IMG/VR virus record: IMGVR_UViG_3300037419_001521
Source: a virus
Lineage: Duplodnaviria; Heunggongvirae; Uroviricota; Caudoviricetes
Reading direction: 5' to 3' (one strand)
DNA length: 64,000 nucleotides
Shown: positions 6,777-55,723 of the stretch, one piece after another
Layout: the number at the start of each line of letters is the position of its first letter
Position numbering within the stretch: the stretch's first letter is position 1
Translations under genes and position numbers: made by a program
The notes under the pieces: model-generated
Told to the model about the DNA's origin: nothing
Databases searched by the model: none
What the model saw: the letters and a program-made list of their open reading frames with translations, nothing else

Positions 6777-8439
6777 TCAACCGCCTCCGTCCGGCAACTT
6801 CATCTACGCCTACGGTCTCGACCCCTCGGGTGATCAAAGCGTCAGCCACCAGCAGACCGACTGGACCACTCAGACCATTCAATCCGCGCTCGGTGCGGCG
6901 GGAGGTATTACCGGATCGTGGACGAATGCGCAGAACACCCACGCGCAGATCGTTTCTCAGCCGCTGCTCGACAACGCGAATCAGATCGGGCAATCGGCGA
7001 CCACGCTGACCAATCACGAAAACCGCATTCACCGGCTCGAAGACGGCAGCCAGATCGCGGTCTATTACAGCAACGACACCTGGCATAAGCCGAGCGGATT
7101 CACTTACCACCACGTGCATTGCATAGGTGGTTCCGGTGGCGGTCAGGGCGGTCAGGACGCCGGGCCTTTCCAATCCGCTACCGGTACATGCTACGGCGGT
7201 CAGGGCGGCGGTCAGGGCGGTTATCAGATCACCGATTTCGCTGACGCCGACCTGCCGCTGTCTTCGTATTCGATTTCGATCGGCACCGGCGGCTTCGGCG
7301 CGTACGCGTATCTGTCCGATAATTTCCAGCGCGCCGACAACACCGCGTTGGGTGCGTATTGGCGCAACGACTCCGGCGACTCCGGATATCAAGCCGCGAT
7401 CATGAGCAATCGAGCCGAGGCCGGTGTCGTTCCGAGTCCCGGATTCGTCAGCTCCAACCGCATCATCACCTTCCTGAGCACCTACACCGCCGCCGAGCTA
7501 CTGACCGACAACTACGTGGTCACGGCTCAGGTCACGACACCGGTGCGCGGCGAAGCAACCAACCTCGGTTCATTCACCGGCGTGTATATCGCGGCCCCCA
7601 GCACCTACGGCAGCTCGACGAAGTGGGTGGGTTTCGCCGCGTCGGCAACTCGCGGTAGCGCCATGATCACCCAGACCGGAACGCCGGACCTCCAATCGGA
7701 CGGGCAGACGTCGGTCGCGACCTCGACGACCAATATCGCTGACGGCCAGACGATCGCTTTGCGCCGCAACGGCAATGTCTTCACCGGGTTCATCAACGGC
7801 AATCAAGTCTGTCAGTGGACCGACACCGGCAACACCGTGTCCAGCGGGGCCGGGTATCGCCACTTCGGCATCTTGCTGCAAGGCGTGACCTCCGAAGACA
7901 GCCACGGCACCGTAGCCGCGCAGCTGGACTCCCCCGCGATCTCGCAGATCATCGCATCCGACCTCGACGCCACAGCCGGTACGGCAACCACGTTCTCCGG
8001 CGGCGCGGTCACGGTCACCGGCGGTGGTGGCTCTGCGGGGTCGGTGTTCGGCGCGTCCGGTCCAGCAGCGGCCGGTTCCGGCAATCAGACCACGCTCAAC
8101 GCAGGCGGTGGTACGGGTGGCTCGAGTGCGAGTGTTCCCGGCCAGGCCGGTGGTAATGGCGCGGGCTCTACCGGTGGTGCGGGTGGTGTGAATCCCGGCG
8201 ACCCCGGCCACGACGGTGCGAACCTGCCGACCGGTTCATACGGGCCGGGTGCTGGCGGTGGTGGCGGTGCGGGCAGTACGTCAACCAGCGCTGAAGGCGG
8301 TAAAGGCGGTAACGGCGGTTTCCCCGGTGGTGGTGGAGCTGGCGGTGGCGGCACACCCGCGAAGACGAAAAATCCCGGCGGCGGCGGCAATGGCAATGCC
8401 GGATATTGCGTCGTCATCTCCAACAACAGCGCGACATAA
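6763..8439 (+). CDS. glycine-rich minor tail / tail fibre protein
   Basis: 558 aa. C-terminal third is almost pure Gly-rich repeats (GGGGSAGS.., GGNGAGSTGGAGG..), typical of actinophage minor tail proteins. Confidence 0.7.
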   Translation: MTAPNQPPPSGNFIYAYGLDPSGDQSVSHQQTDWTTQTIQSALGAAGGITGSWTNAQNTHAQIVSQPLLDNANQIGQSATTLTNHENRIHRLEDGSQIAVYYSNDTWHKPSGFTYHHVHCIGGSGGGQGGQDAGPFQSATGTCYGGQGGGQGGYQITDFADADLPLSSYSISIGTGGFGAYAYLSDNFQRADNTALGAYWRNDSGDSGYQAAIMSNRAEAGVVPSPGFVSSNRIITFLSTYTAAELLTDNYVVTAQVTTPVRGEATNLGSFTGVYIAAPSTYGSSTKWVGFAASATRGSAMITQTGTPDLQSDGQTSVATSTTNIADGQTIALRRNGNVFTGFINGNQVCQWTDTGNTVSSGAGYRHFGILLQGVTSEDSHGTVAAQLDSPAISQIIASDLDATAGTATTFSGGAVTVTGGGGSAGSVFGASGPAAAGSGNQTTLNAGGGTGGSSASVPGQAGGNGAGSTGGAGGVNPGDPGHDGANLPTGSYGPGAGGGGGAGSTSTSAEGGKGGNGGFPGGGGAGGGGTPAKTKNPGGGGNGNAGYCVVISNNSAT

Positions 8440-8447
8440 GGACTCCT

Positions 8448-8834
8448 GTGCAGAAAAAGATTGCGCGCCTGCATATCGAAGACGTTCAAGGTTACGGCAG
8501 TTACGCGCGCTGCTACGAATTGACGCCACCTATTTTCGACGGCGGGCTCGGCTATAAGTTCATGACAATCGTCGTTCATCCGAAACGCGAGCACGCCGAC
8601 GCTGAAGTGTTCGTTTTCTACGCGAACCATCTCGGGCTTCCGGCGGAGTTGTCGATGAAACGTCGCGGCGGGTCCTTCACTCCTTTGGGTTGTCCTCACG
8701 AAGCCGGTCAGCATTACCTCGACGGATGTTTCGTGTGGGCGCTGGCCTCCAATGGGTACGAAATCGAAGGCTACGGCTACAAAGCGCTTCCGGACGGCCT
8801 GGATTACGACCCGGATGACCTTCCTGATTATTGA
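8448..8834 (+). CDS. hypothetical protein (tail-associated)
   Basis: Start placed at GTG 8448 after an AAGGA RBS, just past the upstream stop. Stop overlaps the endolysin start. Confidence 0.45.
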   Translation: MQKKIARLHIEDVQGYGSYARCYELTPPIFDGGLGYKFMTIVVHPKREHADAEVFVFYANHLGLPAELSMKRRGGSFTPLGCPHEAGQHYLDGCFVWALASNGYEIEGYGYKALPDGLDYDPDDLPDY

Positions 8835-9994
8835 TGCACAACCTGGCGCTTATCGGATTGATTCTCGTTTCCGGCGTCGGGTCGGTTGTCGCGGCTATGT
8901 CCGTGGTCAGCATTCTCCAGCTCTACGACTGGATTTACGAACGTCTTTCTCCTCCAGAAGATTTATACGACAAAGGTGACATCATGGCTGTCCAGCCTAC
9001 ATATACCGAACTCGACCGGATGGGCAATTCTTGCGATTCCCGGTACGGCGCTCGGATCACCAATTTCCTGCTCCACACCGAAGAGGGCAATTCCACCGCC
9101 GAAGGTCTTGCCGCGTTCTGCAACAACACCGGCAACGGCGCGTCCTACCATTACACCGTCCGTAACGGAATCGTCTGCGACGTCGTGGATACCGATTACG
9201 CGAGCTGGTCGGTCGGTGACGCTAATTCCTACACCATCAATTTGTGTTTCGCCGGTTCTCGCGCGGCATGGAGTCGTGACCAGTGGCTGGCTATTTCCGG
9301 TGATTTGCAGATCGCTGCGTGGCTAGCGGTTCAGGATTGCAAGAAGTACGGCATCTCGACCGCTGTGATCGCGCCTCCGTACCACCGCGCGGACGGTATT
9401 TCCGACCATCGGTACGTCACCGACATCATCGGCTGGGGCACGCACACCGACGTCGGCGACAATTTCCCGTGGGACGTCTTCACCGGCTACGTCAACGGGT
9501 ACGTCAATCCCGGCCCGGTCCCGAACGCGATCAACGACAAAGCCGCGCAGGCTAGTTGGCTCGGTACTCGGATCACCGCTGGCGAAGGTGTCTGCCCCGA
9601 CAAGGTCGGCCGGTACGCGCAATTCCAGAACGGATACGTGTATTGGAGCCCGGCCACCGGCGCGCACACCGTCCCGAATTCCCTTTTCGGCAAATGGGCG
9701 ACATTGAAGTGGGAGGCCGGTCTGCTCGGTTACCCGATTCTCGACAACGCGGTAGTGACCGGCGGCGAATGCCAAGCCTTTCAGGACGGCTGCCTCTACC
9801 ACGAAGACGGTAAGCCTGTCGTCGCTGTCCACGGCGCGATTCTGAATTCGTGGGCGAAGGCCGGTTACGAAAAGTCTCCGCTCGGCTGGCCGATTACCGA
9901 TGAAACTCCGTTCGGCGACGGCGTCGTGCAGCAGTTCGACCACGGAAAGATTTATTGGAGCCCGTCGGGCATTGTGACGATCAAGGATCAGTAG
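8831..9994 (+). CDS. endolysin: N-acetylmuramoyl-L-alanine amidase (PGRP/Amidase_2-like) with two C-terminal LGFP repeats; possible SAR N-terminus
   Basis: Amidase_2-like segment (ITNFLLHTEEGNS..SYHYTV..). Two LGFP repeats (LGYPILD.., PLGWPITDE..). N-terminal 30 aa are Gly/Ala/Ser-rich and hydrophobic (LALIGLILVSGVGSVVAAMSVVSIL). Alternative start ATG 8983 has an AAGGTG RBS. Confidence 0.75.
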   Translation: MMHNLALIGLILVSGVGSVVAAMSVVSILQLYDWIYERLSPPEDLYDKGDIMAVQPTYTELDRMGNSCDSRYGARITNFLLHTEEGNSTAEGLAAFCNNTGNGASYHYTVRNGIVCDVVDTDYASWSVGDANSYTINLCFAGSRAAWSRDQWLAISGDLQIAAWLAVQDCKKYGISTAVIAPPYHRADGISDHRYVTDIIGWGTHTDVGDNFPWDVFTGYVNGYVNPGPVPNAINDKAAQASWLGTRITAGEGVCPDKVGRYAQFQNGYVYWSPATGAHTVPNSLFGKWATLKWEAGLLGYPILDNAVVTGGECQAFQDGCLYHEDGKPVVAVHGAILNSWAKAGYEKSPLGWPITDETPFGDGVVQQFDHGKIYWSPSGIVTIKDQ

Positions 9995-9996
9995 TA

Positions 9997-10740
9997 GTGA
10001 AATTCGGTCTCAACCCCACCCCTCCGGAAGCCGTTTCGCTGAAGCTGTCGAATTACCTCGACCTCGGCGCGCTTCCGAAGATTCCCGGCAGTTTCGGGCA
10101 TGAAAATATCCTCACCGATTACGGGATGCTGGCCAATGACCAGTACGGGGATTGCGTCGTCGCCGGTGCGTGTCACGAAGTGATGATCTGGAATGCCGCC
10201 GCAGGCCATCCGGTGCCGACCTTCACCGACGAAACCGCGCTGGCGGACTACTCGGCGATCACCGGATTCACGCCCGACGATCCGAGCACCGATCAGGGTA
10301 CCGACATGGCCGCCGCTGCGCGGTACCGGAAGAACACCGGCATCGTCGATGCGGCCGGTAACCGGCATAAAGTCGCTGCGTATCTGGCAATCGAGCCGGG
10401 CAACCTCCACGAGCTGGCGGCGGCGTCGTATCTGTTCGGAGCTGTCGGAATCGGCATCGAAGTCACCGACGTCGCGATGAATCAGTTCGAAAACGGCCAG
10501 CCTTGGAGCTACCGGCGCGGCGGAAATATCCTCGGCGGCCACTACGTGCCGATCGTCGCGAAGCGGCAGGGATATTACATCGCGGTCACCTGGGGAAAGC
10601 TCCAGAAAATGACGTGGGCGTTCTATGTCCAGCGCAGCATGACCGCAATCGCCTACGTATCCGAGGAATACCTCAACAACGGCGTTTCGCCCGAGGGATT
10701 CAACAAAACAGCGCTGCTGCGCGACCTCGGACGACTGTAA
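9997..10740 (+). CDS. C39/papain-like cysteine peptidase-domain protein (lysis-associated)
   Basis: Q-x3-DCVVAGACHEVM resembles the Cys motif of C39-like peptidases. Downstream GGHYVPIV is His-motif-like. GTG start 3 nt after the endolysin stop, with an AAGGA RBS. Confidence 0.45.
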   Translation: MKFGLNPTPPEAVSLKLSNYLDLGALPKIPGSFGHENILTDYGMLANDQYGDCVVAGACHEVMIWNAAAGHPVPTFTDETALADYSAITGFTPDDPSTDQGTDMAAAARYRKNTGIVDAAGNRHKVAAYLAIEPGNLHELAAASYLFGAVGIGIEVTDVAMNQFENGQPWSYRRGGNILGGHYVPIVAKRQGYYIAVTWGKLQKMTWAFYVQRSMTAIAYVSEEYLNNGVSPEGFNKTALLRDLGRL

Positions 10741-10756
10741 GAAAAGGAAAACATAT

Positions 10757-10990
10757 ATGCTGACCTACCTGAAGAGCCTGTGGGCGATGGAGCCTGTCCG
10801 CAGCGTTCTGTATACCGTCCTGACTGGCCTCGTCGGTATTCTGTTGATCAAGGCTGGCTTTACGTCGAATGTCGGTGATCTGATCGACGCGATTATCGCC
10901 GCTGTGCTCGGAATTCCGGCCACTGAAATCGTTCGCTCGCAGGTTTGGCCCTCCGCGAAGGTAGCTGCGATCACCGCTCCGAAGGTGTGA
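10757..10990 (+). CDS. holin-like small membrane protein
   Basis: 77 aa with two hydrophobic segments. Strong RBS (GAAAAGGAAA). Immediately follows the lysin genes. Confidence 0.5.
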   Translation: MLTYLKSLWAMEPVRSVLYTVLTGLVGILLIKAGFTSNVGDLIDAIIAAVLGIPATEIVRSQVWPSAKVAAITAPKV

Positions 10991-10991
10991 T

Positions 10992-11309
10992 GTGACTACC
11001 GGCCTCGCTACAGCGATCCTGACGTTGCTTGTCGGGAGTGACATCCTGCAAGTACTCGCCAGTCTGTGGGCTACCCGGCGCAAACGTGGGGCTGATACCG
11101 CAAGCGAATTAGCTAAGAACGCATTAGCGCAGGTGACCAGCCTGCAAGAGCGCTACGGCGCAATGGAGCGTAAATACGATTCGCTCGAGGAGGATATCCG
11201 GAAATTCCGGGAGGCACTTTATCCACACCAGCGGTGGGACATGCTCGCCCACAAGGAGGCGCTGAAAAGTGATCCCAATTTCCCGTCCCCGCCCGAGTTG
11301 TTCATCTGA
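10992..11309 (+). CDS. membrane protein with N-terminal TM and coiled coil (lysis-associated)
   Basis: GTG start 1 nt after the holin stop. N-terminal TM segment followed by a charged coiled-coil region. Confidence 0.4.
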   Translation: MTTGLATAILTLLVGSDILQVLASLWATRRKRGADTASELAKNALAQVTSLQERYGAMERKYDSLEEDIRKFREALYPHQRWDMLAHKEALKSDPNFPSPPELFI

Positions 11310-11346: not shown

Positions 11347-11739
11347 ATGTCATACGATTCCAATACCGGTATCCGTGACGGTCAGCCTTTCGAATTCAAG
11401 GCCGCTGCCGCCGAGACCGCTTCCACCACCCACGCTGTCGCGCACCTCACCGGGGCGTCCGTCGCTTCGATCACCGTCAAGGTCACCGCCGCGTCCGGCA
11501 CCACTCCGACTCTGCTCGTCACTGTCGAGGGCTCCGACGACGGCAGCACTTGGTACACCCTCGGCCAGATCGGCGCGAACGGTAGCGCTGTCGGTGCCAC
11601 TGCGACCGCCCCGACGAACTTCACCACCTCTGCGACCGGCCGAGGCGCTTTCGTGGTCCCCGAGTTCATCCGGACGCGCTCTACGATCGGCGGCACCACC
11701 CCGAGCTTCACCTATTCGGTCGAGGCCGTTCTGTCCTGA
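11347..11739 (+). CDS. hypothetical Ser/Thr/Gly-rich protein
   Basis: 130-aa ORF with GC-rich third codon positions. Followed by a strong terminator. Confidence 0.45.
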   Translation: MSYDSNTGIRDGQPFEFKAAAAETASTTHAVAHLTGASVASITVKVTAASGTTPTLLVTVEGSDDGSTWYTLGQIGANGSAVGATATAPTNFTTSATGRGAFVVPEFIRTRSTIGGTTPSFTYSVEAVLS

Positions 11740-11750
11740 TGTCCAACCTA

Positions 11751-11800
11751 AGAACCCCCCCGGCCTCAGTAGTTATCTACCGGCCGGGGGGGTTCTTTTC
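11751..11800 (+). terminator. intrinsic terminator T0 (first unit of the hairpin array)
   Basis: AGAACCCCCCCGGCC / GGCCGGGGGGGTTCT inverted repeat followed by TTTTCG. Confidence 0.7.
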
Positions 11801-11904
11801 GTTGACCGAAACTTGCTACCACGCGCACTTCGGTCGTCCCGCCCGCCACATCCCATCGCGTCGAGTCGGGACACTCACCATACAGTCTCCGACACCCTCG
11901 GGTC

Positions 11905-11941
11905 CACCGGATTGACCCCCTCGCAACGCATCCGGTAGCCT
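11905..11941 (+). promoter_or_regulatory. promoter-like P0 (-10 TAGCCT at 11936-11941)
   Basis: CCCTCGCAACGCATCCGGTAGCCTGACGGCG is homologous to the P1 block. The -10 fits TANNNT. Confidence 0.4.
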
Positions 11942-12043
11942 GACGGCGAACGAGGGTTCGGACAGCTACATGAGGCCGAGGGCCAGCAGGACGATGCACG
12001 TTTCCGCCAGGACCGAAGTCGCATCCCGACCAGTTCACGAGGT

Positions 12044-12098
12044 AGACCCCCGGTATCGGTGAAGTTATCTGTCCTTCATCGCCGCCGGGGGTCTTTTC
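12044..12098 (+). terminator. terminator T1
   Basis: AGACCCCCGG ... CCGGGGGTCTTTTCG. Stem extended by TATCGGTGAAG / CTTCATCG. Confidence 0.65.
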
Positions 12099-12099
12099 G

Positions 12100-12136
12100 C
12101 GTATCCCCCTGCGACGCAGCAACTTCCTGGTATCCT
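12100..12136 (+). promoter_or_regulatory. promoter-like P1 (extended -10 TGGTATCCT)
   Basis: TGnTANNNT extended -10 at 12128-12136, about 30 nt after the T1 T-tract. Confidence 0.45.
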
Positions 12137-12244
12137 GACGGCGTGTCTCCGATAGGCACTGCGTGCGACCTGCCCGACCGGATATATTTCCGGCCCGTCA
12201 GGACCGACTAGTTGATGATGAGGGCGGGCACTTCGCACTAAGGG

Positions 12245-12293
12245 AGACCCCCGGCTGTGAACTGCGAACAACTCTCCAGTCGGGGGTCTTTTC
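12245..12293 (+). terminator. terminator T2
   Basis: AGACCCCCGGCTG ... CAGTCGGGGGTCTTTTC. Confidence 0.65.
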
Positions 12294-12299
12294 ATGAAT

Positions 12300-12331
12300 T
12301 CGCCTGCGCCGCAGCAGGTTCCTGGTATTCT
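12300..12331 (+). promoter_or_regulatory. promoter-like P2 (extended -10 TGGTATTCT)
   Basis: GCGCCGCAGCAGGTTCCTGGTATTCTGA is homologous to P1. Confidence 0.45.
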
Positions 12332-12426
12332 GATGAGGTGCCCCAGATGGGTACACGGCCTATCTTCCCGTTCAAGCGCATCTGTAATCGACAACCGAGC
12401 CGAGCGGGCTCTGGCCATCATGAGGG

Positions 12427-12476
12427 AGACCCCCGGTGTGTGGACGCAATGCCCGCTTTCGGCCGGGGGTCTTTTC
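12427..12476 (+). terminator. terminator T3
   Basis: AGACCCCCGG ... GGCCGGGGGTCTTTTC. Confidence 0.65.
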
Positions 12477-12479
12477 ATA

Positions 12480-12509
12480 TTGACTGCCCCGCAACACTTC
12501 CGATAACCT
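12480..12509 (+). promoter_or_regulatory. promoter-like P3 (-10 TAACCT)
   Basis: CCGCAACACTTCCGATAACCTGACA is a degenerate copy of the P1 block. Confidence 0.35.
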
Positions 12510-12550
12510 GACACTGCTTGTCTCCGTTCGCTCGGATCAGGCGTCGCACA

Positions 12551-12604
12551 AGACCCCCGGTTCGATGAAGATCCCTATGCCTTCATCGAACCGGGGGTCT
12601 TTTC
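12551..12604 (+). terminator. terminator T4
   Basis: Perfect 16-bp stem CCCCGGTTCGATGAAG / CTTCATCGAACCGGGG followed by TCTTTTCG. Confidence 0.7.
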
Positions 12605-12605
12605 G

Positions 12606-12640
12606 TGTATCCACGCGCAGCGCAGTGCTTCTGGTAGACT
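12606..12640 (+). promoter_or_regulatory. promoter-like P4 (extended -10 TGGTAGACT)
   Basis: CGCGCAGCGCAGTGCTTCTGGTAGACTCGGA is homologous to P1. Confidence 0.45.
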
Positions 12641-12684
12641 CGGAGTATCAGCACAGTTACGCTGATCTGAAGGAGAACCCGCAG

Positions 12685-12750
12685 GTGTGGGTTGTGCTCA
12701 TGGAGCACATCCGCCAGTGCGCGGAGTACAGCCGCCGCATTGACGCATGA
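12685..12750 (+). CDS. possible 21-aa micro-ORF inside array unit 4
   Basis: AAGGAGAA RBS 9 nt before GTG 12685 (VWVVLMEHIRQCAEYSRRIDA). Stop falls inside the T5 hairpin. Not conserved in other units. Confidence 0.25.
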   Translation: MWVVLMEHIRQCAEYSRRIDA

Positions 12751-12793
12751 CCCCCGGTTTCGGTAGCTGCCCTACTGGAGCCGGGGGTTTTTC
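12749..12793 (+). terminator. terminator T5
   Basis: GACCCCCGG ... CCGGGGGTTTTTC. Confidence 0.6.
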
Positions 12794-12878
12794 GGTATCA
12801 TTGCGACCGGCTGCTCATCAGATATGCGGCGGCCCGACGTGAGATCAAAAGCCCTCGGCGCAGGGTTCTCACACCTTC

Positions 12879-12934
12879 AGACCCCCGGTATCGGTGGAGC
12901 ACACGCCCGCTTCATCGCCGCCGGGGGTCTTTTC
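12879..12934 (+). terminator. terminator T6
   Basis: AGACCCCCGGTATCGGTGGAG ... CTTCATCGCCGCCGGGGGTCTTTTCG. Near-copy of T1. Confidence 0.65.
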
Positions 12935-13503
12935 GTGTGTTACAGTCCTAGATACAAGTCGGCCCCGGAAGGTGCTCCAACACCAACCAGGGCCTGGGTG
13001 AGAATCTAGACCGAGGCAGATTCAGCACCGTAGGACCAGATCCTACCAATGATTCTGGCTATCAGCCAATCTCTCCCACTTGCGTCACTGACGCGTGTCT
13101 GCGTGCTGCGACCCGCCGTTCCGGTATGGGCGAGCCCGTCGTGTGTCGGTGACTGCTGCCCGCACGACGGAAGGGAGATTCATTCGCGCCTTGACGACAG
13201 GCGTTATAGGCACGTTCGCCTCAAACCAACAGCCCCGGTAGATGTCTCTAACGAAAGCCTGCGGTACCGGTCGCAGGGCCGTCGACCTGGCCTGATCAGC
13301 TGCGTCGCCGGTGAACTGAAGCCTTGCGCCCACCCGGACGTGAGGCTATCGGCGCTGGGTTGGCAAGCGGAGACGGACAATTGGGATGGCACGGCCTGGG
13401 ATGGCCAACTTGACAAGCATTTATTCCTATCCAGACCCCAGCCCTTGTCCGCTTCGATCGAATACAGTTATAAATGGCTAACAGTCAGCGAAAGGACTGA
13501 GAC

Positions 13504-13974: not shown

Positions 13975-14526
13975 ATGGCAAAGAAGGTGATCGTCACTCA
14001 TCAGGCGATCGACGATCTAGACGGCAAAGAGCTAGGCCCGGAAGACGACGGTAAGACCGTTCACTGGTCCATCGAAGGGGAACACCTCGAGATGGAGCTG
14101 TCCGAGGCCAACAGGCAGCTATTCCTCGCCGACATGGAGAAGTGGAGACGTATCTCCCGACCGGATGGTGCACCTCGGCGCAAAGACGAAGCCGCTAAGC
14201 CGATCAGCACTACAACAGGCCCACTCGGGGAGCTTCTGCCGGATGCCAAACGCGTTGCCCCCCAAGGCAAAAAGGCTAAGGCGGCACCGACAGGCAAGGC
14301 CAAACGAGATAAGACCAGATGGCGTGTCGGCATCCGCACCTGGGCCGCAGAGAACGGTATCGACTGCCCCGCGACGGGCCGTGTGCCGAGGACAGTCACG
14401 GACGCTTGGGACAGAGCGCATCCAAAAGAAGCGGCAGCGATCCACAAAAAGGTGGCAGCCGCCAAAGGCGCAAAAGAGCACGACCTACTCAGCATGGATG
14501 AAGACAGCGAGGACGCAGCAGCATGA
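13975..14526 (+). CDS. Lsr2-like nucleoid-associated DNA-binding protein
   Basis: N-terminus MAKKVIVTHQAIDDLDGKELG..TVHWSIEGEHLEMELSEAN matches the Lsr2 dimerisation domain. C-terminus IRTWAAENGIDCPATGRVPRTVTDAWDRAH matches the Lsr2 RGR DNA-binding motif. AGGAG RBS. Confidence 0.75.
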   Translation: MAKKVIVTHQAIDDLDGKELGPEDDGKTVHWSIEGEHLEMELSEANRQLFLADMEKWRRISRPDGAPRRKDEAAKPISTTTGPLGELLPDAKRVAPQGKKAKAAPTGKAKRDKTRWRVGIRTWAAENGIDCPATGRVPRTVTDAWDRAHPKEAAAIHKKVAAAKGAKEHDLLSMDEDSEDAAA

Positions 14527-54422: not shown

Positions 54423-54602
54423 ATGTCCGACAAGTTCCTAACCCGAGCGCAAGTTGCCGAAAGGCTTGATCTCGCACCAAAAACCCTTGCCAACTGGGCA
54501 TCTGCTGGCAAGGGGCCGAGGTGCATTCGCCTCGCTGGCGGTGCCGTCCGGTATCCGCGCGAGGAGTACGAAGCCTGGGAGCAGCAGCAGCTCACCGCAT
54601 AA
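54423..54602 (+). CDS. xis: excisionase-like HTH protein (59 aa)
   Basis: MSDKFLTRAQVAERLDLAPKTLANWASAGKGP is a MerR/Xis-type HTH. Lies directly upstream of int. Confidence 0.6.
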   Translation: MSDKFLTRAQVAERLDLAPKTLANWASAGKGPRCIRLAGGAVRYPREEYEAWEQQQLTA

Positions 54603-54616
54603 GAAAGAGATCCGCA

Positions 54617-55723
54617 ATGGCAAGCGTCTGGATTCAGCCGAAAAACGGAAAATACCTGGTCCGCTGGTATGTCGACGACCCGAAGGCCGAGAAGTCGGAG
54701 ACCTTCACCAAGCTGGGGAATACGAAGACTCCCGGCACGGCGAAGTACCGCCAGCGCGAGCTGGAAGAACAGCTAGCCAAGGGGACGTACGTCGACCCAA
54801 AGCTCGGAAAGCAGAAACTTGGTGCGGTCGTTGACAAGTGGGCGGCTCGCGCCAACGTCGAGAGCACCGAGGATATTCGCCAGTCATTCCGCAATGACCT
54901 CGGCGACTTGGCTGGAATGGCCGTTGATGACATCCGGGCTCCACATGTGCGCGACTGGCTTGATGTTCTGCGCAACGGCCGTCCATGGGCCGGAGGAACG
55001 GCTCTCGCTCCCGGCACGGTGAAGCGCCGCCTCGACATGCTGAAAACCGTGCTCAACCAGCTGGTTTCCGATGAAGTCCTGGTGAAGAATCACGCGGCGA
55101 ACGTGAAGGCCCCGCCGGTCAGTTCGGTTGTGCTGCCGGAAGATTTGATGACCCTCTCCGACGCCCAGATCATCCTCAAGGAGGCCCGCGACAGCCGACT
55201 GAGGGCGATGTGCTCGGTGTCGATGAAATGCGGTCTACGGCCCGCTGAGGTGGCAGGACTACGCGTCCGGGACATCCTGGTCGACGCGTGCTCTATCGCG
55301 GTCATGCAGCAGATCACCCGCAGGCGAGTGGCGACAAGCGTACTGAAGACGGAGACGTCGCGTCGAATCATTGCAGCACCGGCCGATCTCATCGCCGATC
55401 TCACGCCGTTCATGCAGGGCAAAGGGCTCGACGATCTGCTGTTCACTACCGCGAACAACCGGCCGTACAGCAGCAAGGATCTCGGCGATTGGCTCGCCCG
55501 CCGGACGGTCAGTGCGGGGCTGCCGCGTCAGTTCACCTGGAAGGACTTCCGGCACTTCTACGCGTCCTGCCTGATCTTTCAGGGGATCAACGTGAAGACC
55601 GTGCAGAAGAGCATGGGACACGCCTCGGCTTCGATCACTCTGAACGTTTACACGCACCTGTGGCCGAACCAGGAAGCGGCGGTCAGGAGCGCGGTCGAGG
55701 ACATCTGGGGCTTGGCAGCCTAA
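54617..55723 (+). CDS. int: tyrosine integrase
   Basis: SAM-like N-domain. Catalytic C-domain with R...HxxR...Y (FRHFYASCL...LNVYTHL). AAGAAAGAG RBS. Confidence 0.85.
   Translation: MASVWIQPKNGKYLVRWYVDDPKAEKSETFTKLGNTKTPGTAKYRQRELEEQLAKGTYVDPKLGKQKLGAVVDKWAARANVESTEDIRQSFRNDLGDLAGMAVDDIRAPHVRDWLDVLRNGRPWAGGTALAPGTVKRRLDMLKTVLNQLVSDEVLVKNHAANVKAPPVSSVVLPEDLMTLSDAQIILKEARDSRLRAMCSVSMKCGLRPAEVAGLRVRDILVDACSIAVMQQITRRRVATSVLKTETSRRIIAAPADLIADLTPFMQGKGLDDLLFTTANNRPYSSKDLGDWLARRTVSAGLPRQFTWKDFRHFYASCLIFQGINVKTVQKSMGHASASITLNVYTHLWPNQEAAVRSAVEDIWGLAA

What the first reader, a model, noticed from the sequence alone, without database searches (positions are those of the whole stretch)
8831..10740. 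Endolysin with a possible signal-arrest-release N-terminus, LGFP wall-binding repeats and a separate C39-like peptidase; no lysin B seen
The amidase ORF begins with a 27-residue Gly/Ala/Ser-rich hydrophobic stretch typical of SAR domains, yet an internal ATG at 8983 with a good RBS would give a cytoplasmic form, so two isoforms could be made. LGFP repeats indicate a Corynebacteriales-type cell wall. The next gene carries a C39/papain-like Cys motif (QYGDCVVAGACHEVM) and may be a second lytic enzyme. No cutinase-like LysB (GxSxG) gene is present in the cassette.
Basis: partly seen in the sequence, partly recalled or inferred. Interest (0 to 1): 0.55.

Follow-up and report, generated by a model that had tools for sequence, protein, structure and literature searches.

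The report
Membrane-anchored phage amidase with papain-like partner
A temperate Nocardia-type phage carries a cell-wall amidase that has gained a membrane-spanning N-terminus, unreported for phages of mycolic-acid bacteria in the two surveys read, followed by a cysteine peptidase from a large unnamed family that looks like a new kind of phage lysis enzyme.

Summary
The ORF at 8834-9994 encodes a hydrophobic N-terminus (residues 4-30), an acidic linker, an Amidase_2 domain and LGFP repeats. An internal ATG lies at 8984 (not 8983), behind the strongest ribosome-binding site in the cassette. TMD-less (no transmembrane domain) amidase-only homologues start exactly there.

The extension is real coding sequence. 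A relative (L003) that is about 28% diverged in DNA keeps it hydrophobic and in frame.

It is more hydrophobic than the proven SAR (signal-arrest-release) domains of P1 Lyz and Mu gp22. "Exported and membrane-tethered" is therefore supported; "released like a SAR" is open.

The next gene (9997-10740) is not a C39 peptidase. It has a papain/cathepsin (C1-like) fold with no Pfam, NCBIfam or PDB sequence match. It belongs to a family of about 5,400 cluster representatives. Members sit next to varied endolysins and are found fused to Amidase_2, SLT, M23 and pseudomurein-hydrolase domains, so it is very probably a second wall hydrolase.

Two holin-like genes follow (two TMDs, then one). They resemble Ms6 gp4/gp5.

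No lysin B was found in the 64 kb window.

Verdict: a new variant of known lysis systems, of moderate interest.

The parts
8406..8834 (+). Upstream ORF (142 aa as listed; 128-135 aa in relatives). Function unknown, no TMD. Its TGA stop overlaps the amidase ATG (TGATG).
   Evidence: An ORF of the same size occupies this position between the minor tail gene and the lysin gene in L003, L004, L005 and L007; only the C-terminal DNA of the L003 copy was compared by sequence. No Pfam, PHROG or NCBIfam hit.
8834..9994 (+). Long-form endolysin (386 aa): N-terminal TMD, acidic linker, Amidase_2 domain and LGFP repeats.
   Evidence: Pfam Amidase_2 and LGFP. phrog_2998 endolysin 1e-112, matching residues 48-384 only. 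Closest cultured-phage relative is TPA2 LysA at 55.6%.
8843..8923 (+). Transmembrane segment, residues 4-30. It follows an uncharged MHN stub.
   Evidence: KD19 maximum 2.39. Conserved as a hydrophobic segment in L003 despite 27/96 nt differences. Only 1.8% of random-mutation replicates keep both the ORF and the hydrophobicity.
8924..8983 (+). Acidic linker, residues 31-50, net charge -4. It contains the internal Shine-Dalgarno AGGTGA at 8974-8979.
   Evidence: L003 has a 4-codon in-frame deletion here, yet AAGGTGA is conserved 7/7.
8984..9994 (+). Putative short, cytosolic isoform (336 aa). It starts at the ancestral amidase start, M51.
   Evidence: Of 23 amidase-only homologues read besides the window's own variant, 21 begin M-x-x-P-x-[YF]-x-E-[LI]-D/N... 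at this position; one has a non-TMD N-terminal extension and one starts further in. SD duplex -8.3 kcal/mol.
9053..9412 (+). Amidase_2 catalytic domain, residues 74-193. Candidate zinc-site motifs are LLH81TEEG, SDH192RYVT and TH204TD206.
   Evidence: The motifs are conserved in homologues. The zinc-ligand assignment rests on general knowledge of the family.
9536..9991 (+). LGFP wall-binding repeats, residues about 235-386.
   Evidence: Pfam LGFP 2.5e-36. PS1 structures 6SWZ/6SX4 E=1e-28.
9997..10740 (+). Papain-fold (C1-like) cysteine peptidase, 247 aa, with no signal sequence. Cys53 codon at 10153-10155; His182 codon at 10540-10542.
   Evidence: AF2 pLDDT 92.4. Foldseek top hits are xylellain and cathepsins and phage Peptidase_C1 proteins. 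Invariant N47, C53, H60, H182, W199 and Q203. Domain fusions to wall hydrolases.
10757..10990 (+). Holin-like protein of 77 aa with two hydrophobic segments.
   Evidence: KD peaks at residues about 13-35 and 35-60. Weak Phage_holin_9 hit, E=9e-4.
10992..11309 (+). Protein of 105 aa: one N-terminal TMD, then RRKR and a helical, charged C-terminal tail. Predicted topology N-out/C-in.
   Evidence: phrog_9090 membrane protein, E=8e-4. Same architecture as LysF1b / Ms6 gp5 (PMC13056207).

Best explanation
This is the lysis cassette of a temperate siphophage that infects a Nocardia-like mycolic-acid bacterium.

**The first enzyme.** It is an Amidase_2-LGFP endolysin whose ancestor was an ordinary cytoplasmic prophage amidase. 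A roughly 30-residue transmembrane helix and a roughly 20-residue acidic linker were fused in front of the old start codon.

- Translation from ATG 8834 is coupled to the upstream gene and has no SD of its own. It gives a form that the Sec/YidC machinery inserts N-in/C-out. The amidase and its wall-binding repeats then sit outside the membrane on a tether before lysis. This form is probably held in check until the two holin-like proteins collapse the membrane potential. It is then released (SAR-like) or simply becomes active.
- Translation from the retained ancestral start, ATG 8984, which has a strong SD, probably gives a second, cytosolic form.

**The second enzyme.** It is a soluble papain-fold Cys/His cell-wall hydrolase (most simply a stem-peptide endopeptidase or amidase). 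It reaches the wall only after the membrane is breached. Together the two genes are a split two-domain endolysin.

**What is shown and what is inferred.**
- Shown: domain identities, the conserved TMD, the conserved internal SD/ATG, the fold, and the family's contexts and fusions.
- Inferred: export, topology, release, production of two isoforms, and the bond cleaved.
For: **Domains.**

**TMD.**
- KD19 is 2.39.
- It is conserved in L003: of 32 codons, 11 are identical, 9 differ only synonymously, and 12 carry hydrophobic or small-residue swaps.
- The linker has a 12-nt in-frame indel.
- Random-mutation simulation gives p about 0.018.
- In both phages the start overlaps the upstream stop.

**Topology cues.** The N-terminal stub MHN is uncharged, and the flank after the TMD has net charge -4 (window) or -3 (L003).

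**The TMD is an add-on.**
- 21 of the 23 amidase-only homologues read besides the window's own variant start at the equivalent of M51; one has a non-TMD N-terminal extension and one starts further in.
- None of the other 119 top homologues has a strong TMD: two reach KD19 1.56, internally.

**Internal SD.**
- Duplex energy is -8.3 kcal/mol (window) and -8.5 (L003), against -3.2 and -2.2 for the long-form start.
- AAGGTGA is conserved 7/7 within a linker that is 64% identical in DNA.

**Possible sign of an extracytoplasmic location.** There are eight cysteines, all conserved in L003. The median in 119 TMD-less homologues is 3, and C313 and C320 are essentially unique.

**Papain-like gene.**
- Model pLDDT is 92.4.
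- The fold is C1-like.
- It lies immediately downstream of endolysins of different types: GH25-like in L004, L005 and L007, PF11860 muramidase in L008/L009, and an amidase in MW202816.
- In 75 IMG/VR loci, about 10 immediately upstream ORFs carry a peptidoglycan-hydrolase or wall-binding (LysM) Pfam domain, covering six catalytic types plus LysM.
- Small TM ORFs are enriched nearby: 83/416 near versus 87/1088 far.
- Fusions exist with Amidase_2 (in the same order as here), SLT, Peptidase_M23, Pei plus PMBR, and Ig-like domains.

**Holin-like pair.** The architecture matches Ms6 gp4/gp5 and LysF1a/LysF1b.
Against: - No experiment supports export, release or two isoforms.
- The TMD is more hydrophobic and longer than the SAR domains of P1 Lyz and Mu gp22. 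This argues against spontaneous release.
- Only two lineages carry the TMD: the window with its 99% variant, and L003. Scans of IMG/VR and JGI metagenomes found no more. Conservation statistics are therefore thin.
- The SD/ATG could be an inherited relic. About 11% of internal ATGs score as well.
- A conserved V/A-A-A|M motif at residues 19-22 could be a signal-peptidase site.
- A Bradyrhizobium Mu-like prophage carries the papain-like gene inside its head module rather than in a lysis cassette.
- Most upstream neighbours in IMG/VR loci have no recognisable hydrolase domain.
Confidence: 0.55

Rival explanations
1. The N-terminal helix is a stable type II signal anchor, not a SAR. The long form stays tethered for good and acts only on peptidoglycan next to the membrane, or serves as a regulatory or minor species. 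Bulk lysis is then done by the cytosolic short form and the papain-like enzyme after holin action.
For: - KD19 of 2.39 and 25-27 uncharged residues, against 2.07 over 20 aa for P1 Lyz and 1.09 for Mu gp22.
- GAST of 0.40 is at the low end for SAR domains.
- The catalytic domain is autonomous, since homologues work without the TMD. SAR-style refolding is therefore not needed.
- The long-form start has a weak SD and the short-form start a strong one.
- In other phages, GH25 lysins with a C-terminal TMD sit beside the same papain-like gene (L023, L028). Permanent tethering may be a recurring design.
Against: - There are no basic residues on the cytoplasmic stub, whereas stable anchors usually obey the positive-inside rule.
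- The core, residues 8-26, is 47-58% Gly/Ala/Ser/Thr with a conserved small-residue face.
- An active tethered amidase made early would risk premature lysis.
Confidence: 0.3
2. The N-terminus is a cleavable Sec signal peptide. The amidase would be secreted and freed by signal peptidase I, as for Oenococcus phage fOg44 Lys44, and kept inactive until the membrane potential collapses.
For: - A conserved small-x-small motif lies before M22: VAA|M in the window and AAA|M in L003.
- Gly14 and Gly16 sit 6-8 residues upstream.
- A precedent for signal-peptide endolysins in Gram-positive hosts is cited in PMC6116114.
Against: - There is no positively charged n-region.
- The hydrophobic run continues for 9 residues past the putative cleavage site, giving one 27-residue helix that would bury the site.
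- No signal-peptide predictor could be run here.
Confidence: 0.1
3. The 150-nt extension is not translated. The amidase is made only from ATG 8984 as an ordinary cytoplasmic, holin-dependent endolysin.
For: - Amidase-only homologues outside this lineage that lack any N-terminal extension start at this position.
- The strongest SD of the cassette precedes 8984, and none precedes 8834.
- GC3 of the extension (0.61) is below that of the amidase ORF as a whole, 8831-9994 (0.73).
Against: - The open frame, the hydrophobicity and the ATG/stop overlap are all conserved in L003 at 72% DNA identity.
- The only indel is a multiple of three.
- Simulation gives p about 0.018.
- A 148-nt non-coding gap that happens to encode a perfect TM helix in frame is improbable.
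Confidence: 0.1
4. The papain-like protein is a true protease acting on a protein target, not a wall hydrolase. Candidates are a host envelope protein, a phage protein, or a defence factor.
For: - Its closest folds are proteases: xylellain, cathepsins, papain.
- One member lies in the head module of a Mu-like prophage.
- 50-58% identity across phyla is unusually high for endolysin domains.
Against: - Repeated adjacency to unrelated endolysin types.
- Fusions to Amidase_2, SLT, M23, Pei/PMBR and wall-binding domains.
- Enrichment of small TM genes nearby.
- The named hosts listed (Nocardia, Mycobacterium, Bradyrhizobium, Acidoferrum) are expected, from general knowledge, to have meso-DAP peptidoglycan, which could explain the conservation.
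Confidence: 0.15

Closest known systems
SAR (signal-anchor/arrest-release) endolysins: P1 Lyz, phage 21 R, Mu gp22
   Same: - N-terminal, uncleaved-looking hydrophobic helix on a phage endolysin.
- Partly rich in Gly/Ala/Ser.
- Partnered with small membrane proteins that could trigger release.
   Different: - Here the helix is an add-on to an autonomous Amidase_2-LGFP enzyme rather than part of a lysozyme fold.
- It is longer and more hydrophobic.
- It has no basic N-terminal stub and no cysteine in the helix.
- The host is a mycolate-type actinobacterium.
Mycobacteriophage Ms6 / F1-cluster lysis cassette (gp1 chaperone, LysA Lysin384/Lysin241, LysB, gp4 with two TMDs, gp5 with one TMD)
   Same: - Holin-independent export of LysA is a known theme.
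- Two LysA products from in-frame starts are documented (PMC6116114).
- A 2-TMD gene followed by a 1-TMD (N-out/C-in) gene comes after the lysins (PMC13056207).
   Different: - Export here would be by a fused TMD, not a chaperone.
- The LysB slot is occupied by a papain-like enzyme.
- The internal start removes a TMD rather than a peptidase domain.
Predicted SAR-like endolysins of Streptomyces cluster BE phages (PMC11705968)
   Same: Actinobacteriophage endolysins with predicted N-terminal SAR-like helices, also known only from bioinformatics.
   Different: - Those are small P1 Lyz-like lysozymes of a non-mycolate host.
- This one is an amidase with LGFP repeats.
- Reviews state that no mycobacteriophage LysA (PMC6116114) and none of 16 Gordonia reference phages' LysA proteins (PMC9671378) has a signal peptide or SAR.
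Split lysin A of Gordonia/Rhodococcus phages ('lysin A, protease C39 domain' plus a second lysin A gene)
   Same: Two adjacent genes each carry one catalytic module of what is elsewhere a single LysA. One module is a Cys peptidase.
   Different: The peptidase here is unrelated at profile level to the D29 LysA N-terminal domain (hhalign probability 0.2%). It has a two-lobed C1-like fold.
Peptidase family C1 (papain, cathepsins, xylellain 3OIS)
   Same: - Overall fold (TM-score 0.55-0.66).
- Catalytic Cys at the start of the central helix.
- His in a beta-strand (GGHY).
- A conserved Trp two residues after the expected Asn position.
   Different: - No sequence-level match to Pfam Peptidase_C1 or to any PDB sequence.
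- The residue aligned by motif with papain Asn175 is variable.
- The context is phage lysis, not proteolysis.
LGFP domain of Corynebacterium glutamicum PS1 mycoloyltransferase (6SWZ/6SX4)
   Same: Clear homology of the C-terminal repeats, E=1e-28. It is a cell-envelope anchoring module of Corynebacteriales.
   Different: It is attached here to a phage amidase rather than a mycoloyltransferase.

Membership tests
Amidase_2 (PF01510) endolysin with LGFP (PF08310) wall-binding repeats | Profile match above the curated threshold for both domains | tested here: met
   Amidase_2 40.1 bits (cut-off 26). LGFP 124.2 bits (cut-off 22) with 3 repeats. phrog_2998 endolysin 1e-112.
Amidase_2 (PF01510) endolysin with LGFP (PF08310) wall-binding repeats | Zinc-binding and catalytic motifs intact | tested here: inconclusive
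   LLH81TEEG, SDH192RYVT and TH204TD206 are present and conserved in homologues. Assignment of the ligands rests on general knowledge of the fold, not on a structural alignment done here.
SAR endolysin | N-terminal transmembrane helix with no obvious cleavage, on an endolysin | tested here: met
   Residues 4-30, KD19 2.39. Conserved in L003.
SAR endolysin | Helix weakly hydrophobic and rich in Gly/Ala/Ser/Thr (about 50-60% in proven cases) | tested here: inconclusive
   GAST is 0.40 (window) and 0.43 (L003) overall, and 0.47 / 0.58 in the core. P1 Lyz is 0.55. KD19 is higher than in P1 Lyz and Mu gp22.
SAR endolysin | Sec-dependent export followed by membrane release on depolarisation, with activation on release | not testable with these tools
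   Needs fractionation with and without energy poisons, and topology reporters.
Dual-start endolysin (Ms6 Lysin384/241 type) | In-frame internal start codon with its own ribosome-binding site | tested here: met
   ATG 8984 with AGGTGA 4 nt upstream, -8.3 kcal/mol. Conserved in L003 at -8.5.
Dual-start endolysin (Ms6 Lysin384/241 type) | Two polypeptides actually produced | not testable with these tools
   Needs a Western blot, N-terminal mass spectrometry or ribosome profiling.
Peptidase_C39 / actinophage 'lysin A protease C39 domain' | Profile match to PF03412, or homology to the LysA N-terminal Cys-peptidase domain | tested here: not met
   No Pfam hit for any of 38 members at E<=10. hhalign of the family profile against D29 LysA gives probability 0.2%.
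Papain-like (clan CA) cysteine peptidase, C1-like fold | Two-lobed papain fold, with the Cys at the N-terminus of the central helix and the His on a beta-strand | tested here: met
   pLDDT 92.4. Helix 53-68 starts at Cys53, and His182 lies in strand 178-190. Foldseek probability 1.00 to xylellain, cathepsins and papain. Cys53 and His182 are invariant.
Papain-like (clan CA) cysteine peptidase, C1-like fold | Sequence membership of Pfam Peptidase_C1 (PF00112) | tested here: not met
   No hit. No PDB sequence hit at E<=10.
Endolysin (peptidoglycan hydrolase) - the papain-like gene | Genomic association with lysis genes and fusion to wall-hydrolase or wall-binding domains | tested here: met
Endolysin (peptidoglycan hydrolase) - the papain-like gene | Demonstrated cleavage of peptidoglycan | not testable with these tools
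   Needs an enzyme assay on sacculi.
Lysin B (cutinase-like mycolylarabinogalactan esterase) | Any ORF in the window with similarity to LysB or with a cutinase/esterase profile | tested here: not met
   tblastn with D29 LysB gave a best E of 0.5. The five non-structural ORFs carrying GxSxG, and 37 larger ORFs overall, gave no hydrolase Pfam hit. Caveats: Gordonia-type LysBs are divergent, and the source contig is longer than the window.

The most novel reading that the evidence does not exclude
Two things together.

(a) The first export-competent, depolarisation-released (SAR-type) lysin A in a phage of the mycolic-acid bacteria. It would be made alongside a cytosolic isoform from the retained ancestral start. 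One gene would then supply both a pre-positioned and a holin-dependent pool of the same amidase.

(b) The downstream gene defines a large unnamed family of C1-fold cysteine cell-wall hydrolases, with about 5,400 cluster representatives. The family is used as an endolysin module by phages of actinobacteria and proteobacteria, and, judging from one fusion to pseudomurein-binding and Pei domains, possibly by viruses of methanogenic archaea.
Probability: 0.3. Interest if true: 0.7.

Novelty: new variant of a known kind. Interest (0 to 1): 0.5.

Why it matters
**Endolysin export in mycolate-type hosts.** How endolysins cross the membrane in these hosts is poorly understood. Only the Ms6 chaperone route has been shown. 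Surveys report no signal or SAR sequences in mycobacteriophage or Gordonia lysin A proteins.

- A natural amidase with a fused TMD gives a directly testable second route.
- TMD-less sister proteins and a retained internal start give a built-in comparison of exported and cytosolic forms.

**A missing endolysin domain.** The papain-fold partner belongs to a very large family that current annotation resources leave blank (Pfam, NCBIfam and PDB give no match; PHROG lists it as unknown function).

- If it is a wall hydrolase, thousands of phage lysis cassettes are missing an endolysin call.
- It would also be a new catalytic module for engineered lysins against meso-DAP-type walls.

Tried and rejected
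- **Megablast of window 1-25000 against 50,697 phage records:** no match. No annotated close relative was available.
- **tRNA and Rfam scans around the cassette:** nothing relevant.
- **C39 hypothesis:** rejected by Pfam and hhalign.
- **PLDc_2 gene in the relatives' cassettes as a possible LysB substitute:** rejected. It resembles NucT/DrmC nucleases, and the window has no copy.
- **TMD borrowed from the 141-aa multi-TM protein that precedes the lysin in L004/L005:** tblastn gives no hit at 8834-8983.
- **More TMD-amidase lineages:** searches of IMG/VR and JGI metagenomes with residues 1-125 found only TMD-less relatives.
- **LysB profile from D29 LysB hits:** abandoned, because tblastn recovers only mycobacteriophage LysBs.
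- **AlphaFold DB (afdb50) fold search:** the library was not available.
- **Lipobox enrichment near the papain-like genes:** marginal, 20/416 versus 35/1088, and not used.


Full report
**What is there**

The region lies at the end of the tail-gene block of a phage-like sequence with 59.8% G+C. Upstream are a tape measure gene, a Sipho_Gp37 gene and a DUF7257 minor tail gene. Further along the window are Lsr2, a prim-pol/helicase, a ribonucleotide reductase small subunit and a tyrosine integrase. No phage record shares DNA with it. The protein relatives are from Nocardia, Tsukamurella, Gordonia and Rhodococcus phages and prophages.

The genes run head to tail on the + strand:
- 8406-8834: unknown function
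- 8834-9994: amidase
- 9997-10740: papain-like protein
- 10757-10990: 77 aa
- 10992-11309: 105 aa
- 11347-11739: 130 aa

**The amidase**

Pfam gives Amidase_2 (residues 74-193, E=5.6e-10) and three LGFP repeats (E=2.5e-36). The LGFP part matches the solved LGFP domain of C. glutamicum PS1 at 1e-28. The PHROG endolysin profile phrog_2998 matches residues 48-384 only. The first 47 residues replace what is a roughly 120-residue N-terminal domain in that family. TPA2 LysA, the closest cultured-phage relative (55.6%), is 535 aa with such an extra domain.

**The N-terminal extension**

Residues 4-30 are uncharged and hydrophobic, with a KD 19-residue maximum of 2.39. Before them is MHN. After them is an acidic linker with net charge -4.

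Among the 120 best homologues out of 5.8 billion proteins, only the window's own 99% variant has such a segment. I read 24 of the amidase-only homologues. Of the 23 besides the window's own variant, 21 begin M-x-x-P-x-[YF]-x-E-[LI]-D/N..., exactly aligned with M51 of the window protein; one (P0029) has a non-TMD N-terminal extension and one (P0052) starts further in. The extension is therefore a lineage-specific addition in front of an ancestral start.

It is coding, not an accidental open frame. A Logan contig (L003), whose papain-like gene is 86% identical, has the same arrangement. Its product begins MHNLILVGFVLAAGVGAVAAAMTVVSIIALIDWFFDRQALFNEGETMATQPTYT.
- Over the first 32 codons, 27 of 96 bases differ. 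Of those codons, 11 are identical, 9 differ only synonymously, and 12 carry hydrophobic or small-residue swaps.
- The linker has a 4-codon indel that keeps the frame.
- In 20,000 random-mutation replicates, only 1.8% kept an open frame with hydrophobicity at least as high as observed.
- In both phages the ATG overlaps the stop of the upstream gene (TGATG), and there is no SD (-3.2 and -2.2 kcal/mol).

**The internal start**

The duplex energy is -8.3 kcal/mol, the strongest in the cassette. L003 has -8.5. AAGGTGA is conserved 7/7 although the encoded residues differ (DKGD versus NEGE) and the linker is only 64% identical in DNA. About 11% of internal in-frame ATGs score as well, so this is suggestive rather than decisive. 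Two products from one lysA gene are documented for Ms6 and Corndog (PMC6116114).

**SAR or anchor?**

I measured two proven SAR domains with the same script.

| Protein | KD19 | GAST | Length |
|---|---|---|---|
| P1 Lyz | 2.07 | 0.55 | 20 aa |
| Mu gp22 | 1.09 | — | — |
| Window | 2.39 | 0.40 | 25-27 aa |
| L003 | 2.47 | 0.43 | — |

. The core, residues 8-26, is richer in small residues (0.47 and 0.58) and has a conserved small-residue face. The lack of basic residues in the cytoplasmic stub fits easy exit. In Mu, Lys6 and Lys7 are what make release depend on a helper protein (PMC9239132). On balance, export and tethering are well supported by sequence logic, while release is open. A V/A-A-A|M motif at residues 19-22 leaves a cleavable signal peptide possible but less likely.

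One further hint of an extracytoplasmic life is the cysteine count. The amidase-LGFP part has eight cysteines, all conserved in L003. The median in 119 TMD-less homologues is 3. C313 and C320 are found in 1 and 0 of those 119.

**The second gene**

The protein has no Pfam, NCBIfam or PDB sequence match, and its PHROG (19005) has unknown function. With 38 homologues the AlphaFold model is confident (pLDDT 92.4, pTM 0.90).

Foldseek places it with C1 papain-family enzymes:
- xylellain 3OIS (E=1.6e-8, TM 0.66), procathepsins B and K, Der p 1 and papain;
- phage "Peptidase_C1" proteins in BFVD (TM up to 0.71), some annotated with peptidoglycan-binding or muramidase parts.

Cys53 opens the central helix. 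His182 (GGHY) lies on a strand. N47, H60, W199 and Q203 are invariant. It is unrelated to the D29 LysA N-terminal Cys-peptidase domain, so "C39" is not the right label.

**What the family does**

It has 5,447 cluster representatives at E<=1e-3 and 1,345 at E<=1e-30. Identities of 50-58% hold between members from Nocardia, Mycobacterium, Bradyrhizobium and Acidobacteria.

Genomic context:
- In close relatives it follows a GH25-like lysin with an Rv3766_C or an LGFP tail (L004, L005, L007).
- In an environmental phage it overlaps the end of a PF11860 muramidase-PG_binding_1 gene (L008/L009).
- In a Manatee Spring myovirus it overlaps an amidase gene.
- In 75 IMG/VR loci, about 10 immediately upstream ORFs carry GH25, Amidase_2, Amidase_3, CHAP, Phage_lysozyme, LysM or Rv2525c-like domains.
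- Small ORFs with a TM segment make up 20% of ORFs within 700 nt, against 8% beyond 2 kb.

Fusion proteins settle the direction:
- Amidase_2 + papain-like (P0385, in the same order as the two genes here)
- SLT + papain-like + Cu_amine_oxidN1 (P0300)
- papain-like + Peptidase_M23 (P0328)
- PMBR repeats + Pei (Peptidase_C71) + papain-like (P0312)
- papain-like + Ig-like domains

The gene is very probably a second wall hydrolase. Together the two genes are a split two-domain lysin. The protein has no export signal. The exception to this picture is a Bradyrhizobium Mu-like prophage, where the gene sits among head genes.

**The membrane proteins**

The 77-aa product has two hydrophobic segments and a weak Phage_holin_9 match. 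The 105-aa product has one N-terminal TMD followed by RRKR and a charged helical tail, which implies N-out/C-in. This pairing matches Ms6 gp4/gp5 and LysF1a/LysF1b, which jointly time lysis (PMC13056207; PMC9671378).

**Lysin B**

None is detectable in the window. This is common among related cassettes. The source contig reaches at least 82.9 kb, so a distal lysB cannot be excluded.

**Novelty**

Reviews state that all mycobacteriophage endolysins lack signal peptide or SAR sequences (PMC6116114), and that none of the LysA proteins of 16 Gordonia reference phages has one (PMC9671378). Predicted SAR-like lysins are reported for Streptomyces BE phages and four lactococcal phages (PMC11705968). 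The TMD-amidase is therefore a new variant of a known strategy in a host group where it had not been described. The papain-fold family is an unannotated but apparently widespread lysin module. I rate the interest as moderate.

Noticed in passing
window 11744-12940: An apparently non-coding stretch of about 1.2 kb just after the cassette holds seven copies of a GC-rich hairpin plus T-run (AGACCCCCGG..CCGGGGGTCTTTTC), spaced 128-298 nt apart. Some copies share 35-74 nt of extra sequence. It looks like an array of terminator-like stem-loops or small RNA genes. No Rfam or tRNA hit.
   Followed up: partly
window 8984-9994 (amidase residues 67, 96, 115, 138, 169, 254, 313, 320): The two TMD-bearing amidases share eight conserved cysteines. 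The median in 119 TMD-less homologues is 3. C313 and C320, seven residues apart in an LGFP repeat, are essentially unique. This may reflect disulfide stabilisation of an exported enzyme.
   Followed up: partly
P0242, P0295, P0303 (homologues of window 9997-10740): Some family members carry an intein inserted one residue before the catalytic Cys (NDQYG|C...N|CCVWAGAAHE). P0242 has a LAGLIDADG_3 hit and P0295 an Intein_splicing hit; P0303 is inferred only from its two-stretch match. This marks the motif as the functional core.
   Followed up: partly
L023:3855-4658 and L028:4162-5010: In two IMG/VR phages the gene just upstream of the papain-like gene is a GH25 muramidase with a Pro-rich linker and a C-terminal transmembrane segment. 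Membrane-tethered lysins therefore partner with this family in more than one way.
   Followed up: partly
L004:4591-5983 and L005:4589-5985 (Nocardia jiangxiensis prophage); L007:3746-4858: Close relatives swap the lysin module while keeping the papain-like gene and the two small membrane genes. L004 and L005 have a 141-aa multi-TM protein plus a GH25-like/Rv3766_C lysin. L007 has a GH25-like catalytic part joined to LGFP repeats.
   Followed up: partly
L003:7321-7842; L004:7555-8082; L005:7552-8079: Relatives carry a PLDc_2 gene (NucT/DrmC-like nuclease) just after the lysis genes. The window has no copy.
   Followed up: yes
L006:5001-5768 (Bradyrhizobium Mu-like prophage): A 54%-identical family member sits between the Mu gpT-like capsid gene and Gp36/tail genes rather than in a lysis cassette.
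   Followed up: no
window 13975-14526; 24042-24920; 54521-55723: The window encodes an Lsr2-like protein, an HTH_31/DUF5753 regulator and a tyrosine integrase. These fit a temperate actinobacteriophage or prophage.
   Followed up: no
window 8406-8834: An ORF of 128-142 aa with no detectable family occupies the position between the minor tail gene and the lysin gene in all relatives, whatever the lysin type; only the C-terminal DNA of the L003 copy was compared by sequence. Its stop overlaps the lysin start. Its role is unknown; it could be tail-related or could assist the lysin.
   Followed up: no
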